From an uncultured virus (IMG/VR IMGVR_UViG_3300030330_001767) (lineage: Duplodnaviria > Heunggongvirae > Uroviricota > Caudoviricetes): a stretch of 64,000 bases of DNA. The position numbers and the translations under genes were made by a program. Below the pieces are notes generated by a model. The model did not search any database. It was not told the DNA's origin and saw nothing but the letters and a program-made list of their open reading frames with translations. The stretch lies in IMG/VR virus record IMGVR_UViG_3300030330_001767. One strand, written 5' to 3'. Of this stretch, positions 8,633 through 47,900 are shown piece after piece. The first letter of the stretch is position 1; each line of letters starts with the position of its first letter.

Positions 8633-8743
8633 TTGTTTTTGGGAGTCTGTTGTTTTTGTTTAGCGGTAACTCCCTTTGAGTCATCAATTTCTTCCGGTGA
8701 TTTTTGTGTTAGATGTGGAACATACGAGGGGGCGTTATCTTGA
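8633..8743 (+). CDS. 36-aa Zn-ribbon microprotein (CCFC...CVRC)
   Basis: Hand-translated. GAGGTGA RBS, TTG start, TTGA coupling to the next gene. Confidence 0.5.
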   Translation: MFLGVCCFCLAVTPFESSISSGDFCVRCGTYEGALS

Positions 8744-15863: not shown

Positions 15864-17192
15864 GTGGCAGAGAAAGATAGCGAAATCTTAGAAGAAGTTC
15901 TTGAGCAAACAAAGCGAAAAGAGACTTTAGAAGAAGAAATCGAACAACGAACTAAGGATTTGAAACGTTCTTGGCTATCGAATGTTCCAATAGAAGACCA
16001 CAGTATTTTGGAAAAGAAATACGCAGAAGATTTCAGAATGAGTTTATCTGATGCAAGAAAGGAATTGAAGTATACTTTGACTAAGTATGAGATTGAAGGT
16101 TCTGACATTCCTAGAACAGTAAAGCAATTGAAAAAATACCGAAGGACTCTCAAAGGAGAGGACAAGGTAAAGATTACTAATTCAATTGAGAATTTAATCA
16201 AAGCATATTCTGACCATTTGGATAGAAGCATGGATAACATCTACTGGATTAGTAAATACAAACCAGTTCTCAAAGACATGACTTGCTCAGAAGATAATCT
16301 AATCAAACTATCATATGTTGACGATGCAACCACAAGGCGAGAACTAATTGATACTCTCTGTAAATATTGGGAAGCAAAAATAGAGAAGGAGGATATGCCC
16401 TTCAATTCTGATTACTCAAGATTGACAAAGGAGATGACTAACACAAAAAGACAATTCAAAAGATTGTTGAAGAAGCATATGAAAACCACTTCTCCAAAGG
16501 ATAAAATCAAACATCACATTCTAAAATCTATATGTGAAGAACCCGGAATATCTGCAAGGCAGATACATGAGAGACTACCAAAGAATCTCTTTACAAAAAC
16601 GACTCCAAACGTAATTGCAAAAATGGCTAAACAAGAAAATATTACTACTGTTAACGGTGCTTTCTACAAGTTTAGTGATGAGATAAAGAAAGATATCTAT
16701 GCTTATACTGCTGCATTCATTGACTCAGATGGCTACATTACAATGGATAAGAATTACAATCCAAGAGTCGGTTTAGTTGCAACCGGAGAAAGAGGCAAGG
16801 CTTTCATGATAGAGATGCACAAGTCATTAGGATGTGGTAGATTACATCTCGACCAAAAATCTCCACAGGATACAAGACCAGTGAACAGATTGAACTTTTA
16901 CTCAGGTGATGATGTTACAGAACTACTAACAAAATGTAGGCCACATTTCAGAATGAAAGGTAAGAATGCTGATATTCTGTTAGAGTTAATCAGGATGAAG
17001 AAATCACATAAGAAGGCTGATTGGTATAATGAAAGGAGAGAAGAACTCTTCAAGTTGATGAAATATGAGAATCATAAAGACCACGTAGGTTATGATTTCA
17101 CACGATATGATATTGACATTGATACTGTTGCCAAACTACATGACAACTGTAAGATGGGTGCAATGGATGTTATCGAGGGGGTGATTGCATAA
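15864..17192 (+). CDS. Helical N-domain, winged HTH and single-motif LAGLIDADG domain protein
   Basis: YAYTAAFIDSDGYI (LAGLIDADG); ILKSICEEPGISARQIHERL (HTH). Confidence 0.8.
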   Translation: MAEKDSEILEEVLEQTKRKETLEEEIEQRTKDLKRSWLSNVPIEDHSILEKKYAEDFRMSLSDARKELKYTLTKYEIEGSDIPRTVKQLKKYRRTLKGEDKVKITNSIENLIKAYSDHLDRSMDNIYWISKYKPVLKDMTCSEDNLIKLSYVDDATTRRELIDTLCKYWEAKIEKEDMPFNSDYSRLTKEMTNTKRQFKRLLKKHMKTTSPKDKIKHHILKSICEEPGISARQIHERLPKNLFTKTTPNVIAKMAKQENITTVNGAFYKFSDEIKKDIYAYTAAFIDSDGYITMDKNYNPRVGLVATGERGKAFMIEMHKSLGCGRLHLDQKSPQDTRPVNRLNFYSGDDVTELLTKCRPHFRMKGKNADILLELIRMKKSHKKADWYNERREELFKLMKYENHKDHVGYDFTRYDIDIDTVAKLHDNCKMGAMDVIEGVIA

Positions 17193-17785
17193 CTTGGTTT
17201 AGCATTCTGAAAAAAGATAACAGTGGTTGGGTTGGAGAGTTAGATGACTCAAAGAAAAAATATCTAAAAATGACACCTAAAATTAAAGTTAAGATTCCTG
17301 ATTTTGAGTATCCTGATGAGAAAACAGAGATACCTAAAATATTAGATGCAATGAAAAATAAAAAACTAAAACCTACTGAAATGGAAGAGACAGATAAAGA
17401 AGCAAAAAATATGTTATTTAGTTTGGTAGAAGATAGTAAAGAAAATTACAAAGACCTTATCAGAGATTTGAAAATATATACTACTAAGCAGAAAGTAAAG
17501 TACAACAGGAAAAGACCATATCAAGTAACAGATAAAATAAAAATGCCTAAAACTACAACCATAAACACTCCATCTTTTCCAAGTGGACACTCGATTGAAG
17601 CATTTGGAATTGCTACTGCTTTAGCCCACAAGTTTCCTGAGAAGAAAAAAGAACTGATGGAAGTTGCTGAAAAGATATCAGATGCAAGAGTGGAGATGGG
17701 AGTTCACTACCATTCTGATAAAAATGTAGGAAAGCAAATAGGAGAGATGATTGGTAGAGCGTATGTAAAGGAGGCGATGTCATGA
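17189..17785 (+). CDS. PAP2/acid phosphatase-haloperoxidase superfamily enzyme (probable ATA start at 17189; first ATG at 17270)
   Basis: KVKYNRKRP (Kx6RP), PSFPSGH, ARVEMGVHYHSD. Confidence 0.85.
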   Translation: MTWFSILKKDNSGWVGELDDSKKKYLKMTPKIKVKIPDFEYPDEKTEIPKILDAMKNKKLKPTEMEETDKEAKNMLFSLVEDSKENYKDLIRDLKIYTTKQKVKYNRKRPYQVTDKIKMPKTTTINTPSFPSGHSIEAFGIATALAHKFPEKKKELMEVAEKISDARVEMGVHYHSDKNVGKQIGEMIGRAYVKEAMS

Positions 17786-23672: not shown

Positions 23673-23699
23673 ATCCCTACGAAAGACGTGAGGGGTCAG

Positions 23700-26291
23700 A
23701 TGCCGCAAACAGGATTAGAGTTTGAAAAAGAAACAAGTGGCCTAACAAAACAGGTCTTAGATTTTTTTGAGAAGGTTCGCTACTCCTATCTTTCAGCAAG
23801 AGAAAATCCCGATGATTATGGGGATGCTTGGAAGAAAACAGTCAAGGATATCAGAGAACAATTAGATTCTCTTGATGATTTCAGCAATGAATTGAAAACT
23901 TATGTCAAAGAAGACGTGGCTCAATCTGATGAGGCATACAACCCAAAATCAAGACAAGCAAAAGAATTGTATGAATCGGTAAAGGAACTCAGGTTCAAAT
24001 CCGAAAAGGTCAGTGACCCGTTTTCAAAACAACTTGGTGATAATGTAATACCTAAGTTGTTGAAGAATGAAGCATTGTTTGCTTATTTTATTCACTATGC
24101 TTTACGCTCTCATGCAAATGCTTTACCTGAAAAGGCATGGAAAGCGGTAGAACTCAAACCCGATAAGATAACTCAAAATGTAATGGGTTTGGATTTAGAG
24201 CCAAAGGACATTCCATTATACATCATAGAACATTATGGTGGAGAAGAGGAAGACACAAGAAGAGTGGAAAGTAAGTTCAAGGGGGCTTACAAATTATTAG
24301 AGAAGGTGTATGCTTCTCAATATGATGAAGATAAGTGGGATAATCTCGTTGAGTTAGATATTGCAAAGAGTGAACAAAAACAAGAAATTGACTTTATCGT
24401 TCCCAACAAACCAATGTATAGAATTTTTGAAATAGATGATATGAAAGAAATCAAAGGTCTTACTGGTGAATATATTGTTCAAGAAAAATATGATGGTATG
24501 AGAATACAACTTCACAAGTTCAATGGTAAAGTCAGAATATACTCTTTCAATGAAAAGGACATTACAGATAAGTGTCCAAAACAAGTTAAACAACTGGAAA
24601 AGAAAATGTTCAATGATTGTATATTGGATGGGGAACTCATGTTGTTCGATGGTGATGAACCATTACATAGAGCAGATACAATAGCCCATGTTTTCAAGAA
24701 TAAAAAGGGTGGTGAACTAAGGGCACACGTCTTTGATATTATGGTTCATGAAGGAAAGAACATTTCTGATGAAACTCTACGAGAAAGAAATAATATTCTT
24801 TTGTATCAGTATGCTCAACATTCGTCTGAGGACTTAGCGTTCCCATCTAAGAAGGATACAAGAATCGCTGATTCCATAAAAGAAGTAGAATCCTATGCTA
24901 AAGAAATAATGCAGTTACCTGCATCAGAAGGTGTGGTAATCAAAGATATAGAATCAACATATTACATTGGAGTTAAGAAAAATCCTAAGTGGATTAAGTG
25001 GAAGAAGTTCATTGATTTGGATGTTGTAGTTTTAGATGATAAGAAAACAAAGAGCAATCTACATTCCTACACAATGGGAGTTGGGCCAGTTAATGCTGAA
25101 ACTGCGAGGAACTACAAGACTGTTGAGTTTGAAGATAAAGACTACTTAGAAGTGGGTAAGGCTCTCAACACAAAACAATCAGTAAAAATTGGTAGTATTG
25201 TTAGAGTAAAAGTTGATGAAGTTAAGAAAGGTAAAGATGGGTTCAAACTATTTTCTGCTAAAGTTATAGAGATACCCGAAGTAACCCAATCAGATACGGT
25301 TGAAACATTAGAGCAACTAGCAAGTAAAACAAAGAAATCTCTTACTGCAATTGGATATACATTTGGAGATAAGGTAGGTGGGATGTTTGAAGTCACATCA
25401 GGATTAGAGAACCCAAGAGGTCAGAAAAGGAAAGATGTCAAGAAAGGATATTACATTACAGACCACATACATGGAACTGCTGAGATTATTCTAAAAGAGG
25501 ATATGAATGGTTTCACAATCTATGGTTTTGAAGGAGATTCTCTTATGCAGAAGAATGCTCTATACAACATAGACTTGTGGAAAGAGCAAGTAATTAGTAT
25601 AATGAAAGGGAAACGTTCTACTTTTAGATTGGCTATTCGTAATGAAATATTAGAGAGTGGTAGAGATAATCTAAGGTTTGAACAGATATTAGATTATGTT
25701 AAGGACAAACATCAAGGAACTTTTCAAGACTTATTCGATTCTGATGAAGGAAGGTTAATGTCTTGGATGAAACAACAAGAAGATTTAGTTTACCTTCATC
25801 CTAACAAGTTTACTGCAAGAGAAGATATACTGGAAAAAGATGTTGAAGAATTACAAAAGGAAGAAACAGGTAAGTATACAATTAATCTTAGAGAAGATGA
25901 TAATGTAGATTTAATCATAGAATACAAAGACGAGCGTATGGGTTGGACTATTGATATTGAAGAGTCAGAAGACATATACGAATTGTTTGGTAAGTCAGGT
26001 AAGTATCCGGCTATTGTAATGAAGAATGCAGGTGAGCCTAAGAAAGTATTGGATAAAGGCAGTATAGAATTAGGTATTCAAAAAGATGGATACCATGAAT
26101 ATAGATTAGATGGAGATAAGTTCCAAACAAGAATGCACTTTAGAGTAGTTCCGTTAGATGAACAAAAGAGTTGGATAGCATGGACAGGAAAAAAACAAGA
26201 AATGTTAGACGATGAAGAGAACCCAAATAAATGGAATCTGAATGAAGATTCTTATGCTCAATTACCCTTCCCTTCGGATAAAAAAGAGTAA
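23700..26291 (+). CDS. lig: ATP-dependent DNA ligase with N- and C-terminal extensions
   Basis: Motif I QEKYDGMR, III ILDGEL, IIIa HVFDIM, IV EGVVIK, V WIKWKK, then an OB-fold region. Confidence 0.9.
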   Translation: MPQTGLEFEKETSGLTKQVLDFFEKVRYSYLSARENPDDYGDAWKKTVKDIREQLDSLDDFSNELKTYVKEDVAQSDEAYNPKSRQAKELYESVKELRFKSEKVSDPFSKQLGDNVIPKLLKNEALFAYFIHYALRSHANALPEKAWKAVELKPDKITQNVMGLDLEPKDIPLYIIEHYGGEEEDTRRVESKFKGAYKLLEKVYASQYDEDKWDNLVELDIAKSEQKQEIDFIVPNKPMYRIFEIDDMKEIKGLTGEYIVQEKYDGMRIQLHKFNGKVRIYSFNEKDITDKCPKQVKQLEKKMFNDCILDGELMLFDGDEPLHRADTIAHVFKNKKGGELRAHVFDIMVHEGKNISDETLRERNNILLYQYAQHSSEDLAFPSKKDTRIADSIKEVESYAKEIMQLPASEGVVIKDIESTYYIGVKKNPKWIKWKKFIDLDVVVLDDKKTKSNLHSYTMGVGPVNAETARNYKTVEFEDKDYLEVGKALNTKQSVKIGSIVRVKVDEVKKGKDGFKLFSAKVIEIPEVTQSDTVETLEQLASKTKKSLTAIGYTFGDKVGGMFEVTSGLENPRGQKRKDVKKGYYITDHIHGTAEIILKEDMNGFTIYGFEGDSLMQKNALYNIDLWKEQVISIMKGKRSTFRLAIRNEILESGRDNLRFEQILDYVKDKHQGTFQDLFDSDEGRLMSWMKQQEDLVYLHPNKFTAREDILEKDVEELQKEETGKYTINLREDDNVDLIIEYKDERMGWTIDIEESEDIYELFGKSGKYPAIVMKNAGEPKKVLDKGSIELGIQKDGYHEYRLDGDKFQTRMHFRVVPLDEQKSWIAWTGKKQEMLDDEENPNKWNLNEDSYAQLPFPSDKKE

Positions 26292-29789: not shown

Positions 29790-30203
29790 TTGCCAGTTAT
29801 AGATACAGATACAAGATTAATAATGACTATGCTCTTTGTTGGAGCGGTAAGTGGATTGAACATTTACGTATACGCCTTAGTTGGAACTTCTTTCCCATAT
29901 AGCGGAGTAGCCCATGCAGTGTTATTTGGAGTTAGCACTGTTGGTGGGATAATGATATTGAAAGTAATATTAGATTTGATTGCCAATGATTTCATTGAAG
30001 AGTTCTTGCTAAAACGAAGAATAGATGCTTATTGGAATAGAAAGGCAAATGACGAAGAAAACAGAAAGAGGGTAAGAGAATCCTTAGTTCAGTTTCAACA
30101 GGCATACTATCAGAATCAACAACAAGCGCAACAAAATGTTATGGTTCAACCAGTAAGCGACAACACTCTAAGCCCTACTTTCTTAACACAGTTTCAAGAG
30201 TGA
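29790..30203 (+). CDS. Two-TM membrane protein with Q-rich C-terminal tail
   Basis: Hydrophobic segments LIMTMLFVGAVSGLNIYVYALV and VAHAVLFGVSTVGGIMILKVIL; TTG start after GGAGTTGA. Confidence 0.75.
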   Translation: MPVIDTDTRLIMTMLFVGAVSGLNIYVYALVGTSFPYSGVAHAVLFGVSTVGGIMILKVILDLIANDFIEEFLLKRRIDAYWNRKANDEENRKRVRESLVQFQQAYYQNQQQAQQNVMVQPVSDNTLSPTFLTQFQE

Positions 30204-30212
30204 GGGTAGAGT

Positions 30213-30440
30213 ATGGTCGGAGAAATCCTAATGGGATTCGATGAATCCACATTAGCATATGACCTACAAAGAGCGCATTCTGCTGATATTTGGTTTCTAA
30301 GAGCAAGGTTCTACATTTGGGGTGCAGCAGTTTCAGTAGGAACTTTTCTAATAGGCCATGCTTTGCCGTTGTTTGGTGTCAATCTATACTCTATCTTTTG
30401 GGATGGGTTTGTCTCTTTTTGGAATCATCTATGGGGGTAG
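30213..30440 (+). CDS. Small membrane protein
   Basis: FYIWGAAVSVGTFLIGHALPLFGV plus aromatic amphipathic C-terminus. Confidence 0.75.
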   Translation: MVGEILMGFDESTLAYDLQRAHSADIWFLRARFYIWGAAVSVGTFLIGHALPLFGVNLYSIFWDGFVSFWNHLWG

Positions 30441-30446
30441 AGCCTA

Positions 30447-31118
30447 ATGTCCGTGATGACGGGCTTTGCCATACTCATAGTTGAGGCTATGAACAAGATG
30501 TATCAACGTCTTCACTCTATACCGTTTGGTGTGTATGGTGCAAGCAAAGTAGGTAAAACAACATTACACCATCAATTGAGAACAAGAGGAGAAGTTCCTT
30601 CTATTACAGACAGAACAGTTGGTCTACATAGAGCCACAAGAAAATATGTAAAACTTGACGGTGATGCTCATACAGTAAAAACTGCTGATGTTGGTGGAGA
30701 AACTGTTTACTGGAATGAGTGGTTAGAGGATATGCGTGGTCGTCACGTTAAATATATTATTTTCATGATAGATGATAGACATATGGACAAACACTACGAT
30801 ATAGAACAACAACTATGTTGGACATTTTTAGTTGATACTATTTGTTCATCTCATTGGAACTTGAATGGTAGAAAAAAGAAAAAGAAGCCTCATGATTACC
30901 CAATAGCCGTATCTATTTGGGCTAACAAATATGACTTATGGAAAGACAAGTATGACTACAATGGAGATATGGATAAGCACCCTATATTTGAGTCATTTAA
31001 ACCCGGTATGCAGAAGTTAAATGATAAAGGAATACCATGTCACAAATACATTGTAAGTGCTAAATCTGATTCAGAAATGGTATATAGAGGAATCCTAACA
31101 ATCATAAAGGACTACTAA
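30447..31118 (+). CDS. Ras-superfamily small GTPase (Arf/Rab-like)
   Basis: G1 GASKVGKTT, G2 RTVG, G3 DVGG, G4 NKYD, G5 SAK; N-terminal hydrophobic helix. Confidence 0.9.
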   Translation: MSVMTGFAILIVEAMNKMYQRLHSIPFGVYGASKVGKTTLHHQLRTRGEVPSITDRTVGLHRATRKYVKLDGDAHTVKTADVGGETVYWNEWLEDMRGRHVKYIIFMIDDRHMDKHYDIEQQLCWTFLVDTICSSHWNLNGRKKKKKPHDYPIAVSIWANKYDLWKDKYDYNGDMDKHPIFESFKPGMQKLNDKGIPCHKYIVSAKSDSEMVYRGILTIIKDY

Positions 31119-31130
31119 GGGAGAGATGAT

Positions 31131-31805
31131 ATGTCTATGCAATTTCAGCCACCCAGTTTAATTGGCGCACAGTCAGCAAATACAGGAATGAACCCATTTC
31201 TTGACAGACTTTCTGCTGCAAGAGCAGCAGGTTCAGTCATGCTTTATGAGTACAAAAGCAATAAGCCAAAAAAACAATTGAAAGAAATTATCAAAGTGCT
31301 TATGCCTGAAAAGAAAAAACTGTTAGGGATAAGATATGGTTTCAAATACAACATAAAAGATAGATGTGTGGTATGTGGAACACAAAAGAATTGGGAAGCA
31401 GGGGACTCGATGAGGCCACCTCTTCCTTTACATAAAGTGCGTAAAGGATATCCAATGAGAGGAACATATTGTGAGAAACACGCTCAGATACACAGACAAT
31501 ATGAAATGTTAGAACAACAAATGCTTGCAGAAGAACATGGTCTTTCTTTTAGTGCTTACATTCCATCTGCAAGAAGTTTGAATCCTTTAGCGAGTGGCCC
31601 TATGACTGGTCTAAAACAGGAAGATATCACCTCTCTAACATCATTGGGTTGGACTATCAAACCCCCTGTTGCTTTAGTAGAAACTAAAGAAGAAGAATTG
31701 TTCAGATTAATCATAGAAACTAATGGAATCAATAGTAGGATGAAAACACTATTAGCCGAAGGCACTAGGGTATCATCAGCACAAGACGAGGAGGATGTAG
31801 AATAA
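31131..31805 (+). CDS. Hypothetical protein with CVVC...CEKH putative Zn finger
   Basis: 224-aa ORF. Confidence 0.8.
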   Translation: MSMQFQPPSLIGAQSANTGMNPFLDRLSAARAAGSVMLYEYKSNKPKKQLKEIIKVLMPEKKKLLGIRYGFKYNIKDRCVVCGTQKNWEAGDSMRPPLPLHKVRKGYPMRGTYCEKHAQIHRQYEMLEQQMLAEEHGLSFSAYIPSARSLNPLASGPMTGLKQEDITSLTSLGWTIKPPVALVETKEEELFRLIIETNGINSRMKTLLAEGTRVSSAQDEEDVE

Positions 31806-32503
31806 TGGGACTATTCGGAACAAGCAACAGTTCGTTGTCAACTCAAATACAGGGTCAACAACAAAGTAATTTCAAAGCAATGAACAACTTACTAACATTA
31901 CAAGAGAATCATGTGGAAGACTTTTTCCAGTATCATGGAGAAGCATTTTTGGGTGCTTTGGAGAAGTTAATTGAAGATGTAGTAACACGCTCTGTAAGTC
32001 AAATGTTAACTAAGTTAGAGTTCAATCAGAGTTCAAGCGGTAATCTAACAATCGCTCCCGAAGCACTCAATGAGTTTACATCAATAACTCAAGAAAATAT
32101 TGATTTAGATTTGGCTAATCTTTTGGCTACTGCTATCAACAGTGAAGTTGTTATGCAGAGAAGAATGGCTAAACAACAGTATCTTGAAGCGCAAGGCTTC
32201 TCTTCTCCTTCTCAACCACAACCCACAACAACTCCAATGGGTATGAATCCCAGTGGATTAGACCCTTCACAGATACAAGGTGGAAATATGGCAGTAGGTA
32301 TGAATAATACTCTAATGCAACAACAAATGGCTTTCAATAACCAATCAGGATATCCTGTTCCTCCTTCGGGATATGACAGTATGAACAATCCATATTGGAT
32401 TGACCCCGCAACAGGCCAACCAACATACACCCCACCGCAGAGTGGATTAGGTTTAGCATCAGGACTAGGTAAAGCAGTTGCATGGGCTAAGTGGTTAGCA
32501 TAG
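31805..32503 (+). CDS. Q/P/M-rich low-complexity protein with C-terminal amphipathic helix
   Basis: GLGLASGLGKAVAWAKWLA terminus; YPVPPSGYD...PYWIDP. Confidence 0.8.
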   Translation: MGLFGTSNSSLSTQIQGQQQSNFKAMNNLLTLQENHVEDFFQYHGEAFLGALEKLIEDVVTRSVSQMLTKLEFNQSSSGNLTIAPEALNEFTSITQENIDLDLANLLATAINSEVVMQRRMAKQQYLEAQGFSSPSQPQPTTTPMGMNPSGLDPSQIQGGNMAVGMNNTLMQQQMAFNNQSGYPVPPSGYDSMNNPYWIDPATGQPTYTPPQSGLGLASGLGKAVAWAKWLA

Positions 32504-32518
32504 GATGGGGTCTGATGG

Positions 32519-34612
32519 ATGGCAGAGATAAAAGTAACAAGTAAAGTTGTTGACGGGTTAAAAACAGGATTTATTCTCAAACCCGAAAAGAAAAAACAAT
32601 CCGTTGATGACTTGTTTACTAATGATGAGTTATTCAGAACTCTCACTGCTTTTATCTTCAATGGTGTGTCTAACACAACCCCAATGAAAGGAGTTCGTAA
32701 ATTAACTAGAAAATTAGTTTCATTAGATAATTCTGATTATAGAGGCACAGACTTAGAGTTCGATGAAGCAGAGTATGAAAAGTATCTTGATACGTATTTT
32801 AGTAAAATAGAGAAAGCACAATTAGATGAATTAGTTAATATGCTTGAAAATATGAATTACGTTACTTCATCAGGTAAAAATAGAGCATTTTCTTTGGGTT
32901 TCCGTAAAGAGTTGGCAAAAGAAAATATTAAACTTTTAGATTTGAGGAATGATTTGAAAGTTAGTAAATTATTAGGTAAGAGATACGGTAAAGGATTAGA
33001 TGATACTGATGTTGATGATAGTGTAAAAGATAAGAAGTCTGCTGAGAAAAGAAGAGAGAAAAAATATGAAAGAAGAAGTAGTAAACTATTAGGAGCATTT
33101 GATAGAAGTGAACCTGCACTGTATCCATCAATATTGATGAAACACATTACTATTTCAGGCGGAATAATAACTATTGATACAGAAGAATACTTCAAAGAGA
33201 TTTTCAAGAAAGAAGGGTATGGAACAATAGGAACAGGTTCATTTCAGTTTAATGTAGGTGGAGCATCCAAATCAACATTTGAAGGTAAGGATGAAGAATC
33301 TAAGAAGGAAAAAGATGAGAGATTAGATAGAGAAGCAGAGGAACAGGCATTAGAAGACTTTGGTTCAGATATGGAAACTGAGGAAGGCATTGAACAAAAA
33401 ATGCTAACCAAAGCAGAAAACTATGGACAACCCGTTGACCAATTAGTTTCTCTTGCAATTTTAGATGGTGGTAAATATGAATTGTTTGTGTTCGGAGAGA
33501 AGAAATCTTTCAATTCTAAAGACAGAGATAAAAACATGGAAGATGTTTGGAATGCTATTCAAGATGTAAAGATGCCTGATAAAAAGTCATTACTTGATAT
33601 TCTTCGCTCACAGAGAAAATCAGTATTGAAAGACACCATCCTTTCTTTCATTACTCCAAGAGAAAATAAGATATCCATAGGAACTGCTACTATAACATTG
33701 AAGAGAAAAGAATGGAAAGATGAAGAGGATTTTATTGTTTGGATGACTAAAGGAGCAGGTAGTCAATCAGATAAGAAAGTCATCAAAGACGCAAGAAAAC
33801 TTGCTGAACTTCTTATGAAGATTGATAATCAGATAGATGCTATTGAAGGTAGTTGGGATGAGTATAATACAAATGTTCCTTTTGACAGATTTTTCACATA
33901 CTTAATGTCCAAGCAAAGAAAGGAAATGGTAAGTTGGCTTCAAGATTTAATTACAAGTATAAAGGATGATAAGTATAATATTGATAATCCAATACAACAA
34001 GAAACAAAACCTGTCATAGATGCAGAAGGAAACCGTGTTTTAGATGAAAGAGGATTTACAGAACAAGAGGTTGTAAGAGAAGGAAAAATACAGGTTGAAC
34101 GAGATGGAAAGAAAGTTGATTATGAGCCAGTATATGATAACCATGAGAAATTAATGGAACTACTATCTACATTAAGAAAACAATTAGGTAATAGTAAGAT
34201 AACAGAAGGACTTAACGTTGGTCAGTTCTTTTTACAAGAGGGAAAGAGAGAAGATTTAATCTTAGAAGAATTACAAAAAGATGTATTAGATGCTCTAAAA
34301 GGAAAAGGTAATTGGCAGACATACCAAGATGAAAAAACAGGAGATTCTGCTGAATTTAGATTTACTACAAACAAATATGTTCCAATAATCAAATACACAT
34401 CAAACGCTCCTAAGAAAAAGGTCATTGATACTAAGTTAGATGGAATATCGAGTAGAGAGTTCAAGCGTGGAAGATTCGGTGAGTCCAGAGTTAGAGCCAC
34501 TAAACAACAAAAAAGAGACAGAGCCAGTAAAGCGGATAAGGATGACTCCGATGAATTGCAACTCATTTATAACGAATATATGGCTTTGAAAGAATTAATA
34601 GGAAGTGTATGA
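32519..34612 (+). CDS. Large charged hypothetical protein
   Basis: 697-aa ORF. Confidence 0.85.
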   Translation: MAEIKVTSKVVDGLKTGFILKPEKKKQSVDDLFTNDELFRTLTAFIFNGVSNTTPMKGVRKLTRKLVSLDNSDYRGTDLEFDEAEYEKYLDTYFSKIEKAQLDELVNMLENMNYVTSSGKNRAFSLGFRKELAKENIKLLDLRNDLKVSKLLGKRYGKGLDDTDVDDSVKDKKSAEKRREKKYERRSSKLLGAFDRSEPALYPSILMKHITISGGIITIDTEEYFKEIFKKEGYGTIGTGSFQFNVGGASKSTFEGKDEESKKEKDERLDREAEEQALEDFGSDMETEEGIEQKMLTKAENYGQPVDQLVSLAILDGGKYELFVFGEKKSFNSKDRDKNMEDVWNAIQDVKMPDKKSLLDILRSQRKSVLKDTILSFITPRENKISIGTATITLKRKEWKDEEDFIVWMTKGAGSQSDKKVIKDARKLAELLMKIDNQIDAIEGSWDEYNTNVPFDRFFTYLMSKQRKEMVSWLQDLITSIKDDKYNIDNPIQQETKPVIDAEGNRVLDERGFTEQEVVREGKIQVERDGKKVDYEPVYDNHEKLMELLSTLRKQLGNSKITEGLNVGQFFLQEGKREDLILEELQKDVLDALKGKGNWQTYQDEKTGDSAEFRFTTNKYVPIIKYTSNAPKKKVIDTKLDGISSREFKRGRFGESRVRATKQQKRDRASKADKDDSDELQLIYNEYMALKELIGSV

Positions 34613-40781: not shown

Positions 40782-41939
40782 ATGGTAGTAAATGCGTATG
40801 TTGGTAGTCCATACAAATTGGTTTTCCCACTTCTCTCATCAGGATATTTAGAAATAGACTACGATAAAACAGTAACACAGATAGAAGGAACTTCCGGTAC
40901 TGTCGGTGGTTCAGGAGATGATACAAACACTCCAACTGCTTCTACGATATCAGACACAAGAAACATACAGATGTGGAATCACACTGGGCCTTTTTCTTTG
41001 GAATGTATAGTAACTCCTTATGACGTAAATGGCTCTGCTAAATACAAAGATGATAACAATAATAACACAGAAGTTGGAATATTAGACTCCACTAAAACCC
41101 CACCATATCCAAGTGATTTCAACAGTAATAGAGCAACTACATATGAAAGCACTAGTATATTGGGAACATCCAACAGTGCATTGCATACTGCTTCTCCACT
41201 TAAACTGATGATATTTCATAATACTAACTTACAACTCTATTTAGAAAATACAACAAAAAATAGTTACAATCAACCTGCTGAGTATAAGATAGTTGCTAAG
41301 TTCAAAAGGACTGGCACTAACACATTTCAAACATTAGAAACAGATACAGTAATTAAGGCTGAACATAAATTAACAGGATACTATGATTCTTATGGATATT
41401 ATGATGGTATTAGCACATCATACACAAATATAGGAGGTGCAGATATTGCAGGTCAAGGAGGTAGTAATCTAACATTGGGTTTAGGAACTCCAATGAATGT
41501 ATACAGATTAGCAAAGGGAACAGAACTTTTTGACTCTAACCTAAACTCTCTTGGAGTAATAGATGGAATTAATTATTCAAATGGGGTTTTAACAATGAGT
41601 CAACCCCAAACTACTAGTCAGTCTAAGGTCTATATTCACCAAAAGAAAGAAGCCCTTTACTTAGAGCAGATGTATAAGATATCATTCACTTACTTACCAA
41701 ATGCTGCCGAGATATACTTGAATAACAATTTAGTTGCTTCAATGAGCCATACCGAATCAACAGTTGTAATACATCCAAGTGATATCAGAATATGTGGTAG
41801 TGGAACTACAAGCGAGCAGTTCTATGGTGAATTATATGAGATAGCATTACACAAGGGAAACTCGATAAACACCACGACACAAAAAACATTGAGTCCAAGT
41901 TATAGTAATATTTTCTTTTATTTCAGGTTTGGTGAGTGA
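40782..41939 (+). CDS. Tail protein with probable LamG/concanavalin-like domain
   Basis: FSLECIVTP...IYLNNNLV...QFYGELYEIAL. Confidence 0.6.
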   Translation: MVVNAYVGSPYKLVFPLLSSGYLEIDYDKTVTQIEGTSGTVGGSGDDTNTPTASTISDTRNIQMWNHTGPFSLECIVTPYDVNGSAKYKDDNNNNTEVGILDSTKTPPYPSDFNSNRATTYESTSILGTSNSALHTASPLKLMIFHNTNLQLYLENTTKNSYNQPAEYKIVAKFKRTGTNTFQTLETDTVIKAEHKLTGYYDSYGYYDGISTSYTNIGGADIAGQGGSNLTLGLGTPMNVYRLAKGTELFDSNLNSLGVIDGINYSNGVLTMSQPQTTSQSKVYIHQKKEALYLEQMYKISFTYLPNAAEIYLNNNLVASMSHTESTVVIHPSDIRICGSGTTSEQFYGELYEIALHKGNSINTTTQKTLSPSYSNIFFYFRFGE

Positions 41940-44900
41940 AGTGGGGACGACAAGCACTTCAATCGGTAGAATGTTTTACCCCATAAACGTGGGTAAAAAA
42001 GATACTGATATCACAAGTAACTATGAAAGTAGAACAACAGAGTTCACACAAGGAGATGCTTTTAGCAACGTATCAGTGAATCCACAATTCAAAACTACTA
42101 ACTTAGAATATGAGAACTCTACGACATCTACCTCTTGGGTAAACTCTGCTAACTTTATTGAGATTAGAAATACATCTCATGTAACTGGAATATCAAACGA
42201 TAATGCAAGTGGTATAGTAAACAGGGTATATCCAACGGGAACTGGGTTAGATACATATGCTAAGAACAGAGATGAAACTAACTCATTCAAGGTAAAGGTG
42301 TTTGATGCTCAATCCAACTATACTGATAATAACAAAAAACTCAGATATGCTACATCAGATACTACTCAAACTATTGGGTTGGATATTGATAATTATGATT
42401 ACTTTATTCTGATAAACCCTGATTTAACAACGGCGGGAACAAATAGAATAAGACCTCATTTTGCTAAGATAACAAGAATAACGGCATTTGATGAGTTTGG
42501 TGATGGGGTAGAGTTTGAGCCATCATACCCTACTTCTATTGCCGCTAATAGTAATTTTGAGATTTACAAAGGGCCATCCAAAACAGATACATCGGTTGTA
42601 GCAGTAAGTTATGGTCTTAGGGGTGATACTGATGCTAACACCTCAAAGTATGATGTATCTCAGAGAGCGACAAGACCAACGTTCTACTTTTACAATGATA
42701 GATTAGATGAGAAAGACCAACTGGATTATCAGGAAAAGTATACTGCTACTTCTGAAAGATGGTGGGACTACTCAACTGAAATAAATGTCAGTGCTATTTC
42801 TGCTCATACTCAATACTCATCAACAACTCCTACTTTGGGTTTCTTACTAGCACCAACAGGAGATAGGGCGAAACTTGTAGAAGGGCAATCCATTTTTGAT
42901 GAGAATGATGTTTTCATTGGTAACGTGAAAGCAAAACATACTAGCACTAACGGAGCATTTTCTATTGACTTTGCAAGAGTTGCAGTATCTTCCTTCACTG
43001 CAACACAATCAGAAATTGCAACTGTTGGCACTGCAAGTCAAAGTGGAACTCCTGATAATTGCACTAGTGGTAACTACAATCCCACTGGTGGTAGTGGTAG
43101 TGGAGCAGTATTGAACATTACATTGGCAAGCATTGGAATTGGCAATCTACAATCCGTTCAGTCAATAACAGTGGTTGATGGTGGCTCAGGGTATACTACG
43201 AGTGATAATCTATCAGTTACCTTAAGCGGGGGTAATGGAGTAACACTGACTATACCCGTTGCTAGTGTAACATACGACTACAAATCATACAAAATAGGAA
43301 AGACGATACAGAACACGGTATTCAAAACAAAGGCAAAATATTCAAACAAAGTGTATTCTTTGGGTAATAGTCCTATTAGTGCAACTATCGTAGATTCAAA
43401 TAAAACAGCAGATGAGTCAGATAATAACTTTGACCCAATAAGATGGAATACTGCATTTCCTAAGATGAAGAGACACTCACTTGATTTGCTTTCTGATACT
43501 GCCGTTACTTCTGATGGTAGACTTACTGGGCCTAATAGATATATCACATTTGAAAAGGCAGATTTCAAGAATAATAAAGTAGAACCTATAACAAGTAGTT
43601 CTTTGAATAGCCCTAAGAATAAGTTATCTCAACTTGCAAGAATACAAACTTCTGATAATAGTGGTCTTAATCACTTGAAAATAAAAGAAGGAGATATTCT
43701 AAAGGTAAGAAGAAACTTACATAATGGTTCATTCACTAAAAAGAATTATTTTGGATTAGCAACAAGTAACAATCAAACAATAACAATGTCTGAACTTAAC
43801 AGTAAATTAGACTTGAAACACATACTGTCTACTGATGATATAGTAGAAATAGATGGTAATTACTTAGTTGTTAATGTAGTAGGGAGTAAAACAAGCGATA
43901 CTGAACAGAGTTTTACTGTAAAAGATTACAAACTAATTAAGTCAAAGACTTGGACTGGAAACTCTTCGGGTTTTACGATAATAAGAAAGCCAATGAAACT
44001 CACACCTTACACTGGTGTTTTGAATGTTGATTTTGAATCTGATGCAGAAGTTAAAATTGATGCTAACGGTAATTTTCAGACCCTAACTATGGATGGTGTC
44101 GGTGTTGCTAAATCAGATAGTAAAATACACAAGGCAAAGTTTACTCCTTTGCTTTACAATAGCCATGTAATAGAAATTGACTATGCTGATAGATACAATA
44201 AATATGCTAAAATTATAGATGCTGATAAGACCTTTTACCAAAAACCAACTGCTTCTGCGAGTAGAATGTATTACTATCAAGGAAAGTATTCCATATCCGA
44301 AGATGTATTCAACGGTGAAGTAGATAGCATAGATGTTAATACTTCTGATGGTTTTACTACTTTCAAATTTCAAGGTAGAGATGATACATCTAAGTTCTTA
44401 GGGGCTACAATAGACAAGACGTTGACACAACACTCTGATATTGTAAAAACAACCTTAGCCCCAATAATAACCAATCATTCTACCATAACTGGAATATCAA
44501 ACGTTGCAGTAACTACAAGTGGAACTAATGCTAACAAGCAAATAACGTATAGTGGAACGCCTAATGTTACTTTGAAACCTTTTACACTTCTTTTGAACAG
44601 TAGTGGGGAATTGATTGGAGAAGTAAGTTCTGCAACATCGGGTTCTATTATTTTGAGTCATAGAATCATAAACTCGCCTATTGGAAATACAATTAGATAC
44701 TTCGACCCATATTCCTCTACACAACATAATCAAATCTCAGGAACAAAGGCAATGCAGAGCAACATTGCACATACAGGAGCAATTTCTGATTTTACTTCTA
44801 TTAGCGAAAAAGGACTTGCTTTCAAAAGAGGATTGGATATTGATTATGATTCTTCTTTTACATATACCCCATTACAACTAAGTTCCAACGTTGGGTCAAA

Positions 44901-47900
44901 AGTTGGAGATGTTTTAGGTTATGATATATCTTCACCAAAATCAATATCAACAGGAGATGCAATATTCGCATTTTCAATAGGAAATGAAAACGGTGTTACT
45001 CTTGATAAGAATGATATTATGAGTGTTAACTCAGAAATGTTTGATATTGTGAAAGAGATTAAACAAGATGATTCTACTACTGTATTGGAAATAGCACCTA
45101 ACTTTCCAATGGTATTAGGTAGGTTCGATTCTAATACATCAGATACAAGGGACAAGAACACTTCAATATACTTAGTTAATAGCAACATAGAAACAGGAGG
45201 ATTTCTACATAGAATACCTGATACATTGGAGATAGGAGGACAGATTGAACCTAAAGAAACTGTTCGCTATTGGGATTTGCAAGCACTGAATCCTAATGCC
45301 TTAGTTAGAACCTATGATAGTATATACAACGTAGGAAAAAAGCCTCAGTCAATACAGGGATATGCTATCGGTTATGGTGTTAAGGCCACAGGAGATACCA
45401 AGAGCATAACAGATACTCCAACAAACAAACCTAAGAATGGTAGCAATAATCTATTGGGTTGGAATGGCCTTAGTTCGTTTTACCATGCTTCTGCTCCTTT
45501 GCCGAAGAGTTATCCTTTAGATACTAAATACTGGGATGAACCCGGTAATGACCCATATGAAGTTGATATTGAGTATTCTAAGTTAGAGCAGATAGACCCT
45601 AGAACACTAAACTACGAACTACTGATGACAGGAGATATATTCCCTTCAAGTAAATTAAGGCATAATAGCATATTCAAGCACAATGTTGGTTTTGATAACT
45701 ATGGAGTTTTACTGGAAACTTCTCCACAGAAAACTGGCGTGGTTAAACATCAACACTATGATGGGGCTACTTCTGAAACGCTGAAAAGAAATGTCAACTT
45801 TGAGTTAGTGAACATAAAGGAAAGCACTCCAAATGCGACTGATGCCACTAATATTAGAAGATGGGGAGTTATCAGACTAGTAGAAGCAACCTTCGATTGG
45901 CATTTCAACCCAATAGATTTTGATTCTTTGAGTCACGTTAAAGATATTCCATCTGTTTCTTACTTTGACTATCATATGATTAAACCAGTTGCAACTCCAA
46001 ACTACACGCATTCTCAATTAGATGATAATGATGTCAAAGGAGATATGTTCTACAAGTCACCTGTATTGAGTTCAGCAACAAGGCCAAGCACAGAGGAGCA
46101 TCCTGATGGGGATTTCATACTGAATAGTGGTGAATATGGTGGATTAATGGCCGTAAGTGCATTGGAAGGTTTTTCTCAAAACGGGTTGACGGCAAGTGTT
46201 GGTGAAGTATTAGAGTTCTCAGCAGATGCAGCATATACTAACTATCCTATATTTGGAATTGAAACTTTTAGATTATTCTCTGCACCGAATTACAGTTTAG
46301 ACGAAGTATCTACGAGATTAGACGGTGAAGACGGTTCAGTAGATACTTTCTTTGTTGATAAACAAGAAGGGCTTAGGGATATTAGATTCCACACAAATTG
46401 GTTGATAAGACCACCTGTTAGTATTGACCAGTTTAGTCATCAGAATCTTAAGTATACTGTTGGTAACTCTACTCAAACTTACAACCCTATGAACATTATA
46501 CTTCCACTTATGGCGGAAATAAAAGACCCTACTGACAAGGATTATATTAGAGATATGAGATATTCTCCCTTCCACCAAATAGACGGTTGGAATGATGACA
46601 ACATTAACTATTTAACTCAAGATTCAGGTATAGTTAGATTACATATGTCAAGGGTAATTTCTGCTATGGTTGGAGAATCATTTGATGAAGGCCCAACTAA
46701 CACTCCCGTAGATAAAGAAATGATGGGTATTGGAAAGAGCCATGTCTATGACAACTGTATTGGTGTATTCAAAGATTGGATTCCCGCATCTGAGAACACA
46801 AGGGGTGTAGAAGAAATAACCCTATCAAGCAGTCCATTGCAATTAGAAACTCAAGCGAAATGGTCGGGGTATGCTGATGACGTAACTACTACATACGACC
46901 AACACACACAGACTGCTCGCTACTGGTCTTTCACTAATTCGGTTTCACATAGATATAACCTTAATAATGGTCAAGTTACTATACTGCCTACAAGAAAAGT
47001 TGCTTTGTTGGGAACGAAGACTAAAGAATACCCATTAAAATTACTTGCAGGTAATAGAGCCAATTTAACAAATAATAACCTAAGAGCAACTAACCATGCC
47101 GGAGCGGGTATAACAGGAGCAGCATTGAATACAGGTCTTATGTATGCTACTCAAATGATAGTAAAACCAAGATTTAATCTGACACTTAGAAACGCCACAG
47201 GGTTTTCTGATGCAGTAACTAAGTCTGCTGATAGCAAGACCTTCACATTTACTTTAGGGGATAACAACAGTGGAACTGCTCATACTTGGTTATCCTTCAT
47301 GCCTGACTTGACTGGTTACTATTTGGTGTCTGAGAAACTAAAAGACGGTAAGAGTTTGAGTAGTGCAAATCATCATGGTATTCCAAAATTCATAACTAAA
47401 ATACTTGACCACCAAATAACCGCCCCAGTAATATCAGGCGGTAGTGCTGCTTGGGAAAAACACGTATTAACCTTTGATACTGCAATTGATACTGCAAATG
47501 GTAATTATTACAGACTAATGAAAATATCAGAAAGAACCTTTGATGATACACCGGATAAGATAGAGTTCAATGTGCTACATGATAGTGGATTGAAGTATGA
47601 TACAACAACTAACAGTTTCATTAGAGGTGTAGCGTCTACTGAATCTTCTAATACAGAAAATCAATATTACAATGAAGCAGTTTATTCAATGTATTTGAAA
47701 TTAGATGTTGATAACGCTATTACTGCAAATAATCCTTATCTTGAAGCAAGAACAACAGTAAAGGCAGTAGAAGGTTTTACTGATGAGGAAGTGATATCTG
47801 CTTTTGTTTCTGATGGTAATAAGAAAAAGAGATTAGATTTTACTGTTTCATTAGCAAGAAAGAAAGGTACGAGCAAATCAAAAACAGAACAGTGCTTAGT

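What the first reader, a model, noticed from the sequence alone, without database searches (positions are those of the whole stretch)
29790..32503. Viral Arf/Rab-like small GTPase in a cluster with membrane proteins: candidate membrane-remodelling or egress module
Seen: a 223-aa protein with all five G-boxes (GASKVGKTT, RTVG, DVGG, NKYD, SAK). DVGGETVYWNEW...YIIFMID...IWANKYDL aligns by eye with Arf DVGGQ...W...LIFVVD...VFANKQDL. The interswitch (VKLDGDAHTVKTAD) looks Rab-like. The catalytic Gln position is Glu, and there is an N-terminal hydrophobic helix as in Arf/Sar1. It is tightly clustered with a two-TM protein, a small TM protein, a Zn-finger protein and a Q/P-rich protein ending in an amphipathic helix, between head and tail genes. 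No recognisable holin/endolysin pair is in the window. Established: Arf/Sar1 insert N-terminal helices to bend membranes, and such GTPases are characteristic of eukaryotes and Asgard archaea and uncommon in tailed viruses. Inference: a GTP-switched lysis, egress or assembly-site system for a peptidoglycan-free archaeal host.
Basis: partly seen in the sequence, partly recalled or inferred. Interest (0 to 1): 0.82.

Follow-up and report, generated by a model that had tools for sequence, protein, structure and literature searches.

The report
Magrovirus Arf-like GTPase membrane cassette
A tailed virus of marine archaea encodes its own very divergent Arf-type GTP switch inside a conserved five-gene block with two small membrane proteins, an undescribed and untested candidate for how such viruses act on or leave through the host membrane.

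Summary
ORF 30447-31118 encodes a 223-aa small GTPase with all five G-boxes. These are invariant in 28 relatives.

It is real but very divergent. No Pfam family reaches its cut-off. A family profile ranks Arf-family structures first, led by the Asgard ArfR 8OUN.

The window is a magrovirus-type tailed archaeal virus.

The five genes are a 2-TM protein, a small TM protein, the GTPase, a Cys/His protein and a Q-rich protein. They are co-conserved wherever contigs reach: 79/79, 80/80, 75/75 and 74/74 loci.

A second virus lineage has a GTPase about 30% identical and the same gene order, but about 20-23 kb upstream of its capsid gene. Three of its genes are homologous by profile comparison.

The gene is almost absent from 185,579 prokaryotic species genomes: 2 contigs of one MAG.

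An egress or lysis role stays an inference. The Rab-like interswitch claim and the ArvC/OapC lead are not supported.

This scan found the same cassette before on other genomes. My searches found no paper that describes it.

The parts
29790..30203 (+). Cassette gene 1: 137-aa membrane protein. It has two hydrophobic segments and then a conserved charged helical tail (IEEFLLKRRIDAYWNRK...NRKRVRES).
   Evidence: ORF and TTG start aligned with relatives' N-termini. Hydropathy. Present in 79 of 79 lineage-1 loci that reach this position. No Pfam, PHROGs or PADLOC family.
30213..30440 (+). Cassette gene 2: 75-aa protein with one hydrophobic segment and an aromatic amphipathic C-terminus (LYSIFWDGFVSFWNHLWG).
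   Evidence: moment 0.54, hydrophobicity 1.01. Present in 80 of 80 loci. No family match.
30447..31118 (+). Cassette gene 3: 223-aa divergent Arf-like small GTPase.
   Evidence: G-boxes invariant in 28 sequences. Ras-like fold in a mid-confidence model, pLDDT 66 and pTM 0.67. The family profile ranks Arf, Arl and ArfR first among solved structures.
30450..30512 (+). N-terminal hydrophobic helix (residues 2-22) ahead of strand beta-1. G6, F7 and E13 are invariant.
30537..30563 (+). G1 P-loop, GASKVGKTT (residues 31-39).
30687..30722 (+). G3 and switch II, DVGGETVYWNEW (residues 81-92). Glu85 sits at the usual catalytic Gln position. Trp92 is aligned with the switch-II Trp of ArfR and Arl3.
   Evidence: (W92 in at least 90% of A2 rows).
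30870..30887 (+). Polybasic run RKKKKK (residues 142-147) in an insert between helix 3 and strand 5.
   Evidence: Predicted hairpin at 136-145. K146 invariant. All 58 and 69 members of the two lineages have 5-9 K/R in the 22 residues before NKxD.
30924..30935 (+). G4, NKYD (residues 160-163), followed by the invariant W165.
31056..31064 (+). G5, SAK (residues 204-206).
31131..31805 (+). Cassette gene 4: 224-aa Cys/His protein, an orphan family.
   Evidence: Present in 75 of 75 loci. Homologous to the protein in the same position in lineage 2: hhalign 96.5%, E 1e-9, score 71 against at most 20 for reversed or shuffled controls. No Pfam, PHROGs, NCBIfam or PADLOC family.
31365..31493 (+). Cys/His cluster C79-x2-C82 ... 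C114-x2-H117-x3-H121. Zinc binding is inferred.
   Evidence: C79, C114 and H117 are invariant in 36 sequences of both lineages. Consensus.
31805..32503 (+). Cassette gene 5: 232-aa Q/N/M/G/P-rich protein with an MGLFG N-terminus and a hydrophobic Ala/Trp C-terminus.
   Evidence: Present in 74 of 74 loci. Homologous to its lineage-2 counterpart: hhalign 94.1%, E 1.3e-7, score 55 against at most 17 for controls. MGLFG start in 45 of 57 and 23 of 69 sequences; Q+N+M+G+P fraction 0.41 and 0.47.

Best explanation
This is a virus-encoded GTP switch cassette that acts at the host cytoplasmic membrane late in infection.

Proposed mechanism:
- The GTPase is a very divergent Arf-like protein.
- In its GTP state it would dock on the membrane through its N-terminal hydrophobic helix and the polybasic loop.
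- There it would work with the two virus-encoded small membrane proteins.
- The Cys/His protein and the Q-rich protein would be its soluble regulator and its effector or scaffold.
- The most likely output is timed remodelling or permeabilisation of the membrane for release of the tailed virions.

Shown: the GTPase is real and Arf-like; the five genes form a conserved block that has been relocated as a unit; the block sits in the late, same-strand gene region in both lineages.

Inferred: membrane docking, the roles of the partners, and egress as the output.

Rough odds: real Arf-like GTPase 0.9; functional five-gene module 0.9; acts at a membrane 0.6; egress specifically about 0.3.
For: GTPase identity:
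- The G-boxes are invariant in 28 sequences.
- The model has a Ras-like fold. The top structural matches are Arl1 (Z 14.1, rmsd 2.6, 148 aligned), Arl2, Arl8, Gi-alpha and GerdArfR1 (Z 13.1).

Arf affinity:
- The profile of A2 scores 8OUN (Asgard GerdArfR1) at 7e-13. Arl3, Arf1, Arl8 and Arf6 then fill nearly all of the 60 rows shown.
- Arf is the best Pfam family for 9 of 18 distant relatives, and 7 of them pass its cut-off.
- hhalign against six Heimdallarchaeial or Arl-type proteins gives 94.1% (E 1.3e-7) for lineage 1 and 95.8% (E 7e-9) for lineage 2.

Membrane link:
- The two upstream genes encode hydrophobic-segment proteins in both lineages.
- The GTPase has a conserved N-terminal helix and a conserved polybasic insert.

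Module:
- Co-occurrence is 79/79, 80/80, 75/75 and 74/74, and 75/75 reciprocally from the Cys/His protein.
- Lineage 2 has the same order in 79 loci where an ORF was called.
- The GTPase, Cys/His and Q-rich proteins are homologous between lineages, well above reversed and shuffled controls.
- The block lies 1.5 kb behind the MCP gene here. In 5 of 5 near-complete lineage-2 genomes it lies 20-23 kb upstream of the MCP gene on the same strand.
- There is one copy per genome in 10 of 10 near-complete genomes.

Selection:
- Median GTPase identity is 81% against 77% for the MCP. It is at least as conserved as the MCP in 50 of 76 loci.

Precedent:
- Arf-type N-helix membrane switching in Asgard ArfR (bioRxiv 10.1101/2024.02.28.582541; passages).
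- ArvA-driven vesiculation in Haloferax (PMC10927574; passages).

RNA libraries:
- Contigs from metatranscriptomic libraries of three studies cover parts of the cassette, including the GTPase and two gene junctions. This is consistent with transcription but does not prove it.
Against: - No experiment or computation here shows membrane binding, GTP hydrolysis or lysis.
- The window protein fails every Pfam cut-off: Arf 16.0 bits against 22.3, with Roc, SRPRB and MMR_HSR1 scoring about the same.
- The structural ranking of Arf/Arl over Rab spans only about 2 Z units, so these rows are effectively tied.
- The N-terminal helix is only moderately amphipathic. Its moment of 0.36-0.48 is within the range of the protein body, whose maximum is 0.44. 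Its model confidence is low.
- The usual catalytic Gln is Glu here and varies in the family.
- The two membrane proteins are not detectably homologous between lineages: hhalign 4% and 0.7%, no better than controls.
- No holin, endolysin or other lysis family matches.
- The related haloviruses lack the GTPase by tblastn: no match in 50,697 phage records. It is therefore not a general egress device of archaeal tailed viruses.
Confidence: 0.4

Rival explanations
1. Assembly-site or morphogenesis factor. The GTPase and its partners tether or organise capsid assembly or DNA packaging at the membrane, or chaperone virion assembly. They do not breach the membrane.
For: In both lineages the block lies in the same-strand late region. 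Here it sits between the MCP and neck or tail genes. In lineage 2 it sits just upstream of a homologue of window gene 8713-9399, which precedes the terminase region (80 of 80 loci). Within the lineage it is at least as conserved as the MCP.
Against: Related haloviruses with the same morphogenetic module have ordinary small genes at this position and no GTPase. The block moved relative to the structural genes. This reading does not explain why two dedicated membrane proteins are needed.
Confidence: 0.2
2. Host takeover at the envelope. The module blocks superinfection, alters host vesicle formation or division, or rewires membrane traffic or lipids for the virus's benefit, without being the exit device.
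For: Archaea of the same broad group use a small GTPase, ArvA, with a Zn-ribbon partner for vesicle formation (PMC10927574; passages). The virus also carries a PAP2 lipid phosphatase. Between lineages the cassette proteins diverge faster than the MCP, at about 30% against 45-52% identity, as host-interaction genes often do.
Against: No cassette protein matches ArvB or ArvC families or any PADLOC defence model. Placement among late genes fits a late function better than early takeover (inference).
Confidence: 0.2
3. Virion-borne ejection or entry proteins. The small membrane proteins and the Q-rich protein are packaged and form the conduit for genome delivery, with the GTPase acting in their loading.
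For: The block lies between capsid and neck genes in this lineage. The nearest ESM Atlas cluster with any Pfam family for the Q-rich protein had P22_gp7 (an ejection protein) on 13% of its members, at score 0.88, which is only a lead.
Against: None of 34 Q-rich family members matches P22_gp7 at E up to 1. The block is not next to capsid genes in lineage 2. I recall no packaged GTPase in tailed viruses.
Confidence: 0.1
4. An accessory gene recently taken from the host, sitting by chance beside unrelated small genes.
For: Small GTPases occur in archaea. Arf-clade GTPases were reported in an MGE-like region of an Asgard genome (PMC11529989; passages).
Against: There are 362 homologues and hundreds of viral contigs in two lineages. 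The neighbours are strictly co-conserved. Only 82 representatives among 1.84 billion reach E 1e-3, none shown to be cellular. Only 2 contigs of one MAG hold it among 185,579 species genomes.
Confidence: 0.02

Closest known systems
Arf family small GTPases (eukaryotic Arf, Arl, Sar1) and Asgard ArfR such as GerdArfR1 (PDB 8OUN/8OUM; bioRxiv 10.1101/2024.02.28.582541)
   Same: Single-domain GTPase of about 200 residues with an N-terminal helix before strand 1, a DxGG motif with Trp eleven residues after the Asp, and NKxD. These are the best profile matches among solved structures and the top structural matches.
   Different: - The window protein is below the Pfam Arf cut-off.
- Glu or a variable residue stands at the catalytic Gln position.
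- The switch I/interswitch stretch is 8 residues longer in the HMM alignment.
- A polybasic hairpin is inserted before strand 5.
- G5 reads SAK.
- It is encoded by a tailed virus in a fixed block with membrane proteins.
ArvA-ArvB-ArvC vesiculation operon of Haloferax volcanii and other archaea (PMC10927574; passages read)
   Same: A small archaeal-type GTPase with an N-terminal hydrophobic helix. Pfam annotates it only weakly (MMR_HSR1), with Arf as the nearest family. It is encoded next to a Cys-rich zinc protein and is linked to membrane deformation.
   Different: No neighbour matches ArvB (DUF2073) or ArvC (PF09845). The only PF09845 signal is sub-threshold, lies in the hypervariable gene behind the cassette, and appears in 2 of 24 homologues. 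No ArvA sequence was on hand for a direct comparison. ArvABC has no dedicated membrane proteins.
Virus-encoded small GTPases of giant viruses, such as the mimivirus Rab (PDB 5xc5)
   Same: A virus carrying its own Ras-superfamily GTPase. 5xc5 appears among the structural matches at Z 12.4.
   Different: That one is a recognisable Rab in a eukaryotic giant virus. This one is an Arf-like orphan family in tailed viruses of archaea, with a fixed set of partner genes.
Arf-clade GTPases in a mobile-element-like region of Atabeyarchaeia (PMC11529989; passages read)
   Same: Arf-type GTPase genes associated with archaeal mobile DNA.
   Different: Those cluster with Asgard and eukaryotic Arfs and lie in a chromosome region. 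Here the family is far more divergent, belongs to complete viral genomes, and comes with four co-conserved partners.
Phage holin-based lysis cassettes
   Same: Small proteins with one or two TM segments and a charged tail, encoded together among late genes.
   Different: No holin, endolysin or spanin family match. No lysis cassette that I recall contains a GTPase.

Membership tests
Ras-superfamily (TRAFAC) small GTPase | G1-G5 nucleotide-binding motifs in order | tested here: met
   GASKVGKTT, RTVG, DVGG, NKYD and SAK are present and invariant in 28 relatives.
Ras-superfamily (TRAFAC) small GTPase | Six-stranded sheet and five-helix G-domain fold | tested here: met
   The AlphaFold2 model (pLDDT 66, pTM 0.67) has the canonical order of elements. 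At least 500 Foldseek matches at E <= 0.001; the rows shown are small GTPases and G-alpha. VIA Z is 12-14. Residues 35-73 are low confidence.
Arf family (Pfam PF00025) | Score over the curated Pfam cut-off (22.3 bits) | tested here: not met
   The window protein scores 16.0 bits, E 0.0087. 7 of 18 distant relatives found with the viral profile do pass.
Arf family | Closest solved relatives are Arf, Arl or ArfR over the full G domain | tested here: met
   A2 profile: 8OUN at 7e-13, then Arl3, Arf1, Arl8 and Arf6 to about 1e-9. Apart from these, the 60 rows shown hold two G-alpha chains and one RecA P-loop hit. With the close-family profile A1 alone the scores are weak: 8OUN at 0.0087 and KRas at about 0.05.
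Arf family | N-terminal amphipathic helix, named the defining feature in bioRxiv 10.1101/2024.02.28.582541 (passage) | tested here: inconclusive
   A helix is predicted at residues 2-22 with pLDDT 52-66. G6, F7 and E13 are invariant. It is hydrophobic (H 0.5-0.7), but its moment of 0.36-0.48 is not above that of the protein body.
Arf family | Switch-II Trp eleven residues after the G3 Asp (signature recalled, not from a call) | tested here: met
   W92 is present in at least 90% of A2 rows. It is aligned with the Trp of GerdArfR1 and Arl3 in the HMMER alignments.
Arf family | Catalytic Gln after DxGG | tested here: not met
   Glu85 in the window. Lineage 1: E 36, Q 22 of 58. Lineage 2: Q 30, E 14, D 9, T 5, no motif 11 of 69.
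Arf family | Nucleotide-dependent interswitch toggle that releases the N-terminal helix | not testable with these tools
   This needs structures or assays in the GDP and GTP states.
Rab family | Pfam Ras/Rab cut-off; C-terminal prenylation cysteines (recalled feature) | tested here: not met
   PF00071 scores 15.4 bits against 21.6. The protein ends in ...TIIKDY with no C-terminal Cys. RabF motifs were not examined.
SR-beta | Pfam SRPRB cut-off; N-terminal transmembrane anchor | tested here: not met
   SRPRB scores 17.2 bits against 25. No 19-residue window reaches a Kyte-Doolittle mean of 1.6; the maximum is 1.11. SR-beta chain 7nfx_v matches structurally at Z 12.7.
Roc/ROCO | Roc cut-off and an adjoining COR domain | tested here: not met
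   Roc scores 18.1 bits against 27. The protein is a single 223-aa domain.
ArvA-ArvB-ArvC system | Neighbouring ArvB (DUF2073) and ArvC (PF09845 OapC) genes | tested here: not met
   None of the four cassette partners matches any Pfam family of relevance at E up to 0.1. PF09845 appears only at 14.6-16.3 bits (cut-off 23) in 2 of 24 homologues of the variable gene behind the cassette. It scores 18.8 bits in G001.
ArvA-ArvB-ArvC system | The GTPase groups with ArvA rather than with other small GTPases | not tested
MglA-type prokaryotic Ras-like GTPases | Best matches to MglA and a neighbouring MglB (roadblock) gene | tested here: inconclusive
   No MglA chain is among the 60 rows shown of 1187 matches. 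No neighbour has a Pfam match. The full list was not seen.
Holin-endolysin lysis cassette | Match to a holin, endolysin or spanin family | tested here: not met
   No such Pfam or PHROGs family for the cassette proteins or the other window ORFs scanned. Only the generic architecture is shared: small TM proteins with a charged tail.

The most novel reading that the evidence does not exclude
Magroviruses run their own Arf-like membrane machine. A GTP-loaded viral GTPase recruits a Q-rich scaffold and a zinc-protein regulator onto two viral membrane proteins to cut or open the archaeal membrane for virion release. This would be the first exit mechanism known for tailed archaeal viruses. It would be a virus-borne counterpart of Arf/ArvA vesiculation outside Asgard archaea and eukaryotes, and a possible route by which Arf-type switches moved between lineages.
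Probability: 0.25. Interest if true: 0.85.

Novelty: new variant of a known kind. Interest (0 to 1): 0.66.

Why it matters
Magroviruses are reported as the dominant archaeal viruses of the surface ocean (PMC5434244, passages). How tailed archaeal viruses leave their hosts is not known. Arf-type GTP switches that act through an N-terminal helix are regarded as a eukaryote and Asgard trait.

A strongly conserved, virus-owned relative with fixed membrane partners gives a concrete, cloneable candidate for a membrane step of infection. It also widens the known range of this switch type. All five proteins are small and can be expressed and assayed without culturing the host.

Tried and rejected
- **Complex prediction.** GTPase (A2) with the Cys/His protein (A5) gave no answer: score 0.00 in both runs and controls not run. 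This says nothing either way.
- **Fold of the Cys/His protein.** pLDDT 55.8 and pTM 0.38. This is too poor for a fold search, so none was made.
- **OapC/ArvC lead.** The hit lies in the variable gene 32519-34612. It is sub-threshold and present in 2 of 24 homologues. Rejected as a charged-helix artefact.
- **P22_gp7 lead for the Q-rich protein.** ESM Atlas score 0.88, family on 13% of cluster members. 0 of 34 family members match it in Pfam at E up to 1. The profile had no PDB relative better than E 0.74.
- **ESM Atlas for the Cys/His protein.** Only unnamed viral clusters at 0.82-0.83.
- **PADLOC.** No match for 12 cassette proteins of both lineages.
- **Distant relatives.**
  - P0154 and P0139 were not found in viral contigs.
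  - Ten distant representatives are unnamed, all on contigs under 19 kb.
  - P0169 has no relatives by word search.
  - The cellular origin therefore stays open.
- **A2 in genome contigs.** A1 was used instead.
- **Own assembly.** Not held, so host genomes could not be searched around it.
- **RNA-library contigs.** They leave large parts of the cassette uncovered and cannot rank expression.
- **tRNA scan.** No tRNA genes in the window.
- **Literature.** No hit for magrovirus plus GTPase or for Poseidoniales plus GTPase plus virus beyond three unrelated papers. GTPase terms are absent from the main text of PMC5434244, PMC10160649, PMC11706807 and PMC8651126. They are also absent from the held supplements of the first three, which are 2, 3 and 2 files. 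Supplements not held could still name it.


Full report
**What is there.** Between 29790 and 32503 the + strand holds five ORFs, 1 base of overlap to 15 bases apart.
- A 137-aa protein (TTG start at 29790, matching the N-termini of relatives).
- A 75-aa protein.
- A 223-aa GTPase (30447-31118).
- A 224-aa Cys/His protein.
- A 232-aa Q-rich protein.

The GTPase has GASKVGKTT, RTVG, DVGGE, NKYD and SAK. In an alignment of 28 relatives every key residue of these motifs is invariant.

**What the window is.** It encodes:
- a large terminase, a portal protein, a prohead protease, an HK97-type capsid protein and a tail tube protein (Pfam);
- a tape-measure-like protein (PHROGs);
- an ATP-dependent DNA ligase lying between the portal and protease genes.

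The capsid protein matches only archaeal tailed viruses among 50,697 phage records. There are 11 records: haloviruses HVTV-1 and HCTV-1/-5 and relatives, and viruses assigned to methanogen-related archaea.

A ligase embedded in the structural module, and capsid similarity only to haloviruses, are features that Philosof et al. describe for magroviruses of Marine Group II archaea (PMC5434244; passages). Relatives sit on marine contigs of 90-107 kb. Ten of these are 94-100% complete and three have terminal repeats. I therefore read the window as a magrovirus-type virus. The host is inferred, not shown.

**What the GTPase is.**
- *Sequence, window protein alone.* Only sub-threshold Pfam hits of similar weight: Roc 18.1, MMR_HSR1 17.7, SRPRB 17.2, Arf 16.0 and Ras 15.4 bits.
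- *Isolation of the family.* A profile search of 1.84 billion representatives gave 82 proteins at E up to 1e-3, many of them fragments.
- *Family profile.* Adding the distant full-length members gives profile A2. Its best solved relatives are the Asgard ArfR GerdArfR1 (8OUN, 7e-13), then Arl3, Arf1, Arl8 and Arf6, over the whole G domain.
- *Distant relatives.* Arf is the best Pfam family for 9 of 18, and 7 pass its cut-off.
- *Named cellular relatives.* A word-indexed search with the seven most Arf-like relatives returned, beyond themselves, six proteins. They include two named Heimdallarchaeial proteins and an Arl6-type protein. Profile-profile comparison of each viral lineage with these six gave 94.1% (E 1.3e-7) and 95.8% (E 7e-9).
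- *Structure.* The AlphaFold2 model (pLDDT 66, pTM 0.67) has the canonical strand and helix order, an N-terminal helix at 2-22, and a hairpin insert at 136-145 that carries RKKKKK. The second-look ranking puts Arl1, a Lokiarchaeal Rag-like protein, Arl2, Arl8, Gi-alpha, Arl3, Arf6 and GerdArfR1 at Z 14.1-13.1, SR-beta at 12.7 and Rabs at 12.1-12.4. These rows are effectively tied.

So it is a real small GTPase that leans to the Arf/Sar/G-alpha side. By the Pfam criterion it is not a member of the Arf family.

Its departures from Arf are these:
- Glu at the catalytic Gln position, which varies in the family between E, Q, D and T.
- A switch I/interswitch stretch 8 residues longer than in ArfR.
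- A polybasic insert, conserved as 5-9 K/R in all 127 sequences of both lineages.

**The N-terminus.** The helix is conserved (G6, F7, E13). It is hydrophobic, but it is not a transmembrane segment by hydropathy, and it is only moderately amphipathic. This fits an Arf/Sar1/ArvA-type membrane-inserting helix but does not prove one.

**The neighbours.** Among the 80 best viral loci, each of the four partners is present wherever the contig covers its place: 79/79, 80/80, 75/75 and 74/74. Median identities are:

| Protein | Median identity |
|---|---|
| GTPase | 81% |
| MCP | 77% |
| Cys/His protein | 72% |
| Small TM protein | 68% |
| Q-rich protein | 68% |
| 2-TM protein | 61% |

Starting from the Cys/His protein gives the reciprocal result, 75/75, though largely on the same contigs.

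The gene behind the block (32519-34612) is hypervariable, at 433-1326 aa. I do not count it as part of the block.

**A second lineage.** A profile of the GTPases that are about 30% identical found 280 further viral stretches. In the 80 kept, only the GTPase is recognisable by tblastn with the window's proteins. The gene order is nevertheless the same:
1. a hydrophobic protein of about 150-205 aa;
2. a hydrophobic protein of about 60-90 aa;
3. the GTPase;
4. in some loci an extra ORF of about 65 aa;
5. a Cys/His protein of about 300-345 aa;
6. a Q-rich protein of about 205-225 aa;
7. an extra 2-TM protein of about 82 aa.

Profile-profile comparison between the lineages:

| Pair | hhalign result | Reversed or shuffled controls |
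|---|---|---|
| GTPase | 99.9% | at most about 21 |
| Cys/His protein | 96.5%, score 71 | at most about 21 |
| Q-rich protein | 94.1%, score 55 | at most about 21 |
| 2-TM protein | 4% | no better than controls |
| Small TM protein | 0.7% | no better than controls |

C79, C114 and H117 of the Cys/His protein are invariant across both lineages.

Lineage-2 genomes have a capsid protein 45-52% identical to the window's. Their cassette lies 20-23 kb upstream of it on the same strand, in 5 of 5 genomes. It sits just before a homologue of window gene 8713-9399, in 80 of 80 loci. There is one GTPase per genome in 10 of 10 genomes. The block has therefore been kept intact while its position changed.

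**Not a host gene.** Patterns from the close family found 2 loci among 185,579 species genomes. Both are in one MAG labelled Maricaulis and probably represent binned viral contigs. No phage record matched. A few JGI copies are auto-named 'GTPase SAR1 family protein'.

**How it may work.** The parts are:
- a conserved Arf-like switch with an N-terminal hydrophobic helix and a basic loop;
- two dedicated small membrane proteins;
- two soluble orphan partners.

All are encoded in the late, same-strand region. Together they point to a GTP-controlled step at the host membrane. Two precedents exist. One is Arf-type helix insertion, shown for Asgard ArfR in yeast (bioRxiv 10.1101/2024.02.28.582541; passages). 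The other is ArvA, the small GTPase needed for vesicle formation in Haloferax, whose zinc-ribbon neighbour ArvC was proposed as a regulator (PMC10927574; passages).

I take timed membrane remodelling or opening for virion release as the single most likely output, at about 0.3. 'Acts at a membrane' stands at about 0.6. Nothing here tests it.

Rival readings remain open: an assembly-site organiser, host takeover at the envelope, or packaged entry proteins.

Contigs of metatranscriptomic libraries from three studies cover parts of the cassette. Such libraries can hold DNA.

**What is known.** The searches listed under Tried and rejected found no paper that describes this gene or block. Earlier agents of this scan reported the same cassette on other genomes, and one of those reports later had a part fall; I could not see which part. 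I reached the reading independently before looking.
- the reversed and shuffled controls on the between-lineage homology;
- the position mapping in ten near-complete genomes;
- the rejection of the OapC and P22_gp7 leads;
- the explicit comparison with ArvABC.

**Verdict.**
- The Arf-like and module parts of the interpretation are supported.
- The egress function is an open, testable inference.

Noticed in passing
window 23688-26291: An 867-aa protein with an ATP-dependent DNA ligase domain lies between the portal and protease genes. This 'ligase inside the structural module' is described as a magrovirus group A/B peculiarity (PMC5434244).
   Followed up: partly
window 17270-17785: A 171-aa PAP2-family lipid phosphatase (E 2e-12) lies between the terminase and portal genes. 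It is a second virus gene that could act on membrane lipids.
   Followed up: no
window 32519-34612 and the same slot in L001-L080: The gene directly behind the cassette is hypervariable: 433-1326 aa, often unrecognisable by tblastn, rich in E and K. It has a sub-threshold PF09845 (OapC) hit in 2 of 24 homologues.
   Followed up: yes
window 41929-49155 and 49611-59471: Two giant ORFs of 2408 and 3286 aa lie downstream of the tail genes with no significant Pfam family. They are presumably fibre or adhesin-like host-recognition proteins.
   Followed up: no
L092 8327-8578 and the same slot in lineage-2 loci: Lineage 2 has an extra 2-TM protein of about 82 aa right after the Q-rich gene (two hydrophobic segments in 55 of 66 sequences). 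Some loci also have a 65-aa ORF between the GTPase and the Cys/His gene. Neither is present in the window.
   Followed up: partly
window 8713-9399; L081-L160 at about 8800-9550: This 228-aa protein (weak PHROG 'transposase' hit, E 2e-4) is the only other window protein recognisable in lineage-2 loci. There it always follows the cassette (80 of 80 loci).
   Followed up: partly
L162, L163: The only two genome-collection hits are contigs of one MAG labelled Maricaulis (a bacterium). They are likely magrovirus contigs binned by mistake.
   Followed up: no
window 13931-14431 and 15864-17192: A GNAT acetyltransferase lies just upstream of the large terminase. A 442-aa protein with an HNH-endonuclease-like C-terminus lies just downstream of it.
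   Followed up: no
window 1-64000: GC skew is positive along almost the whole + strand coding run and turns negative only in the last 2 kb, where a gene lies on the - strand (63076-63672, RNase H-like). There are no tRNA genes.
   Followed up: no
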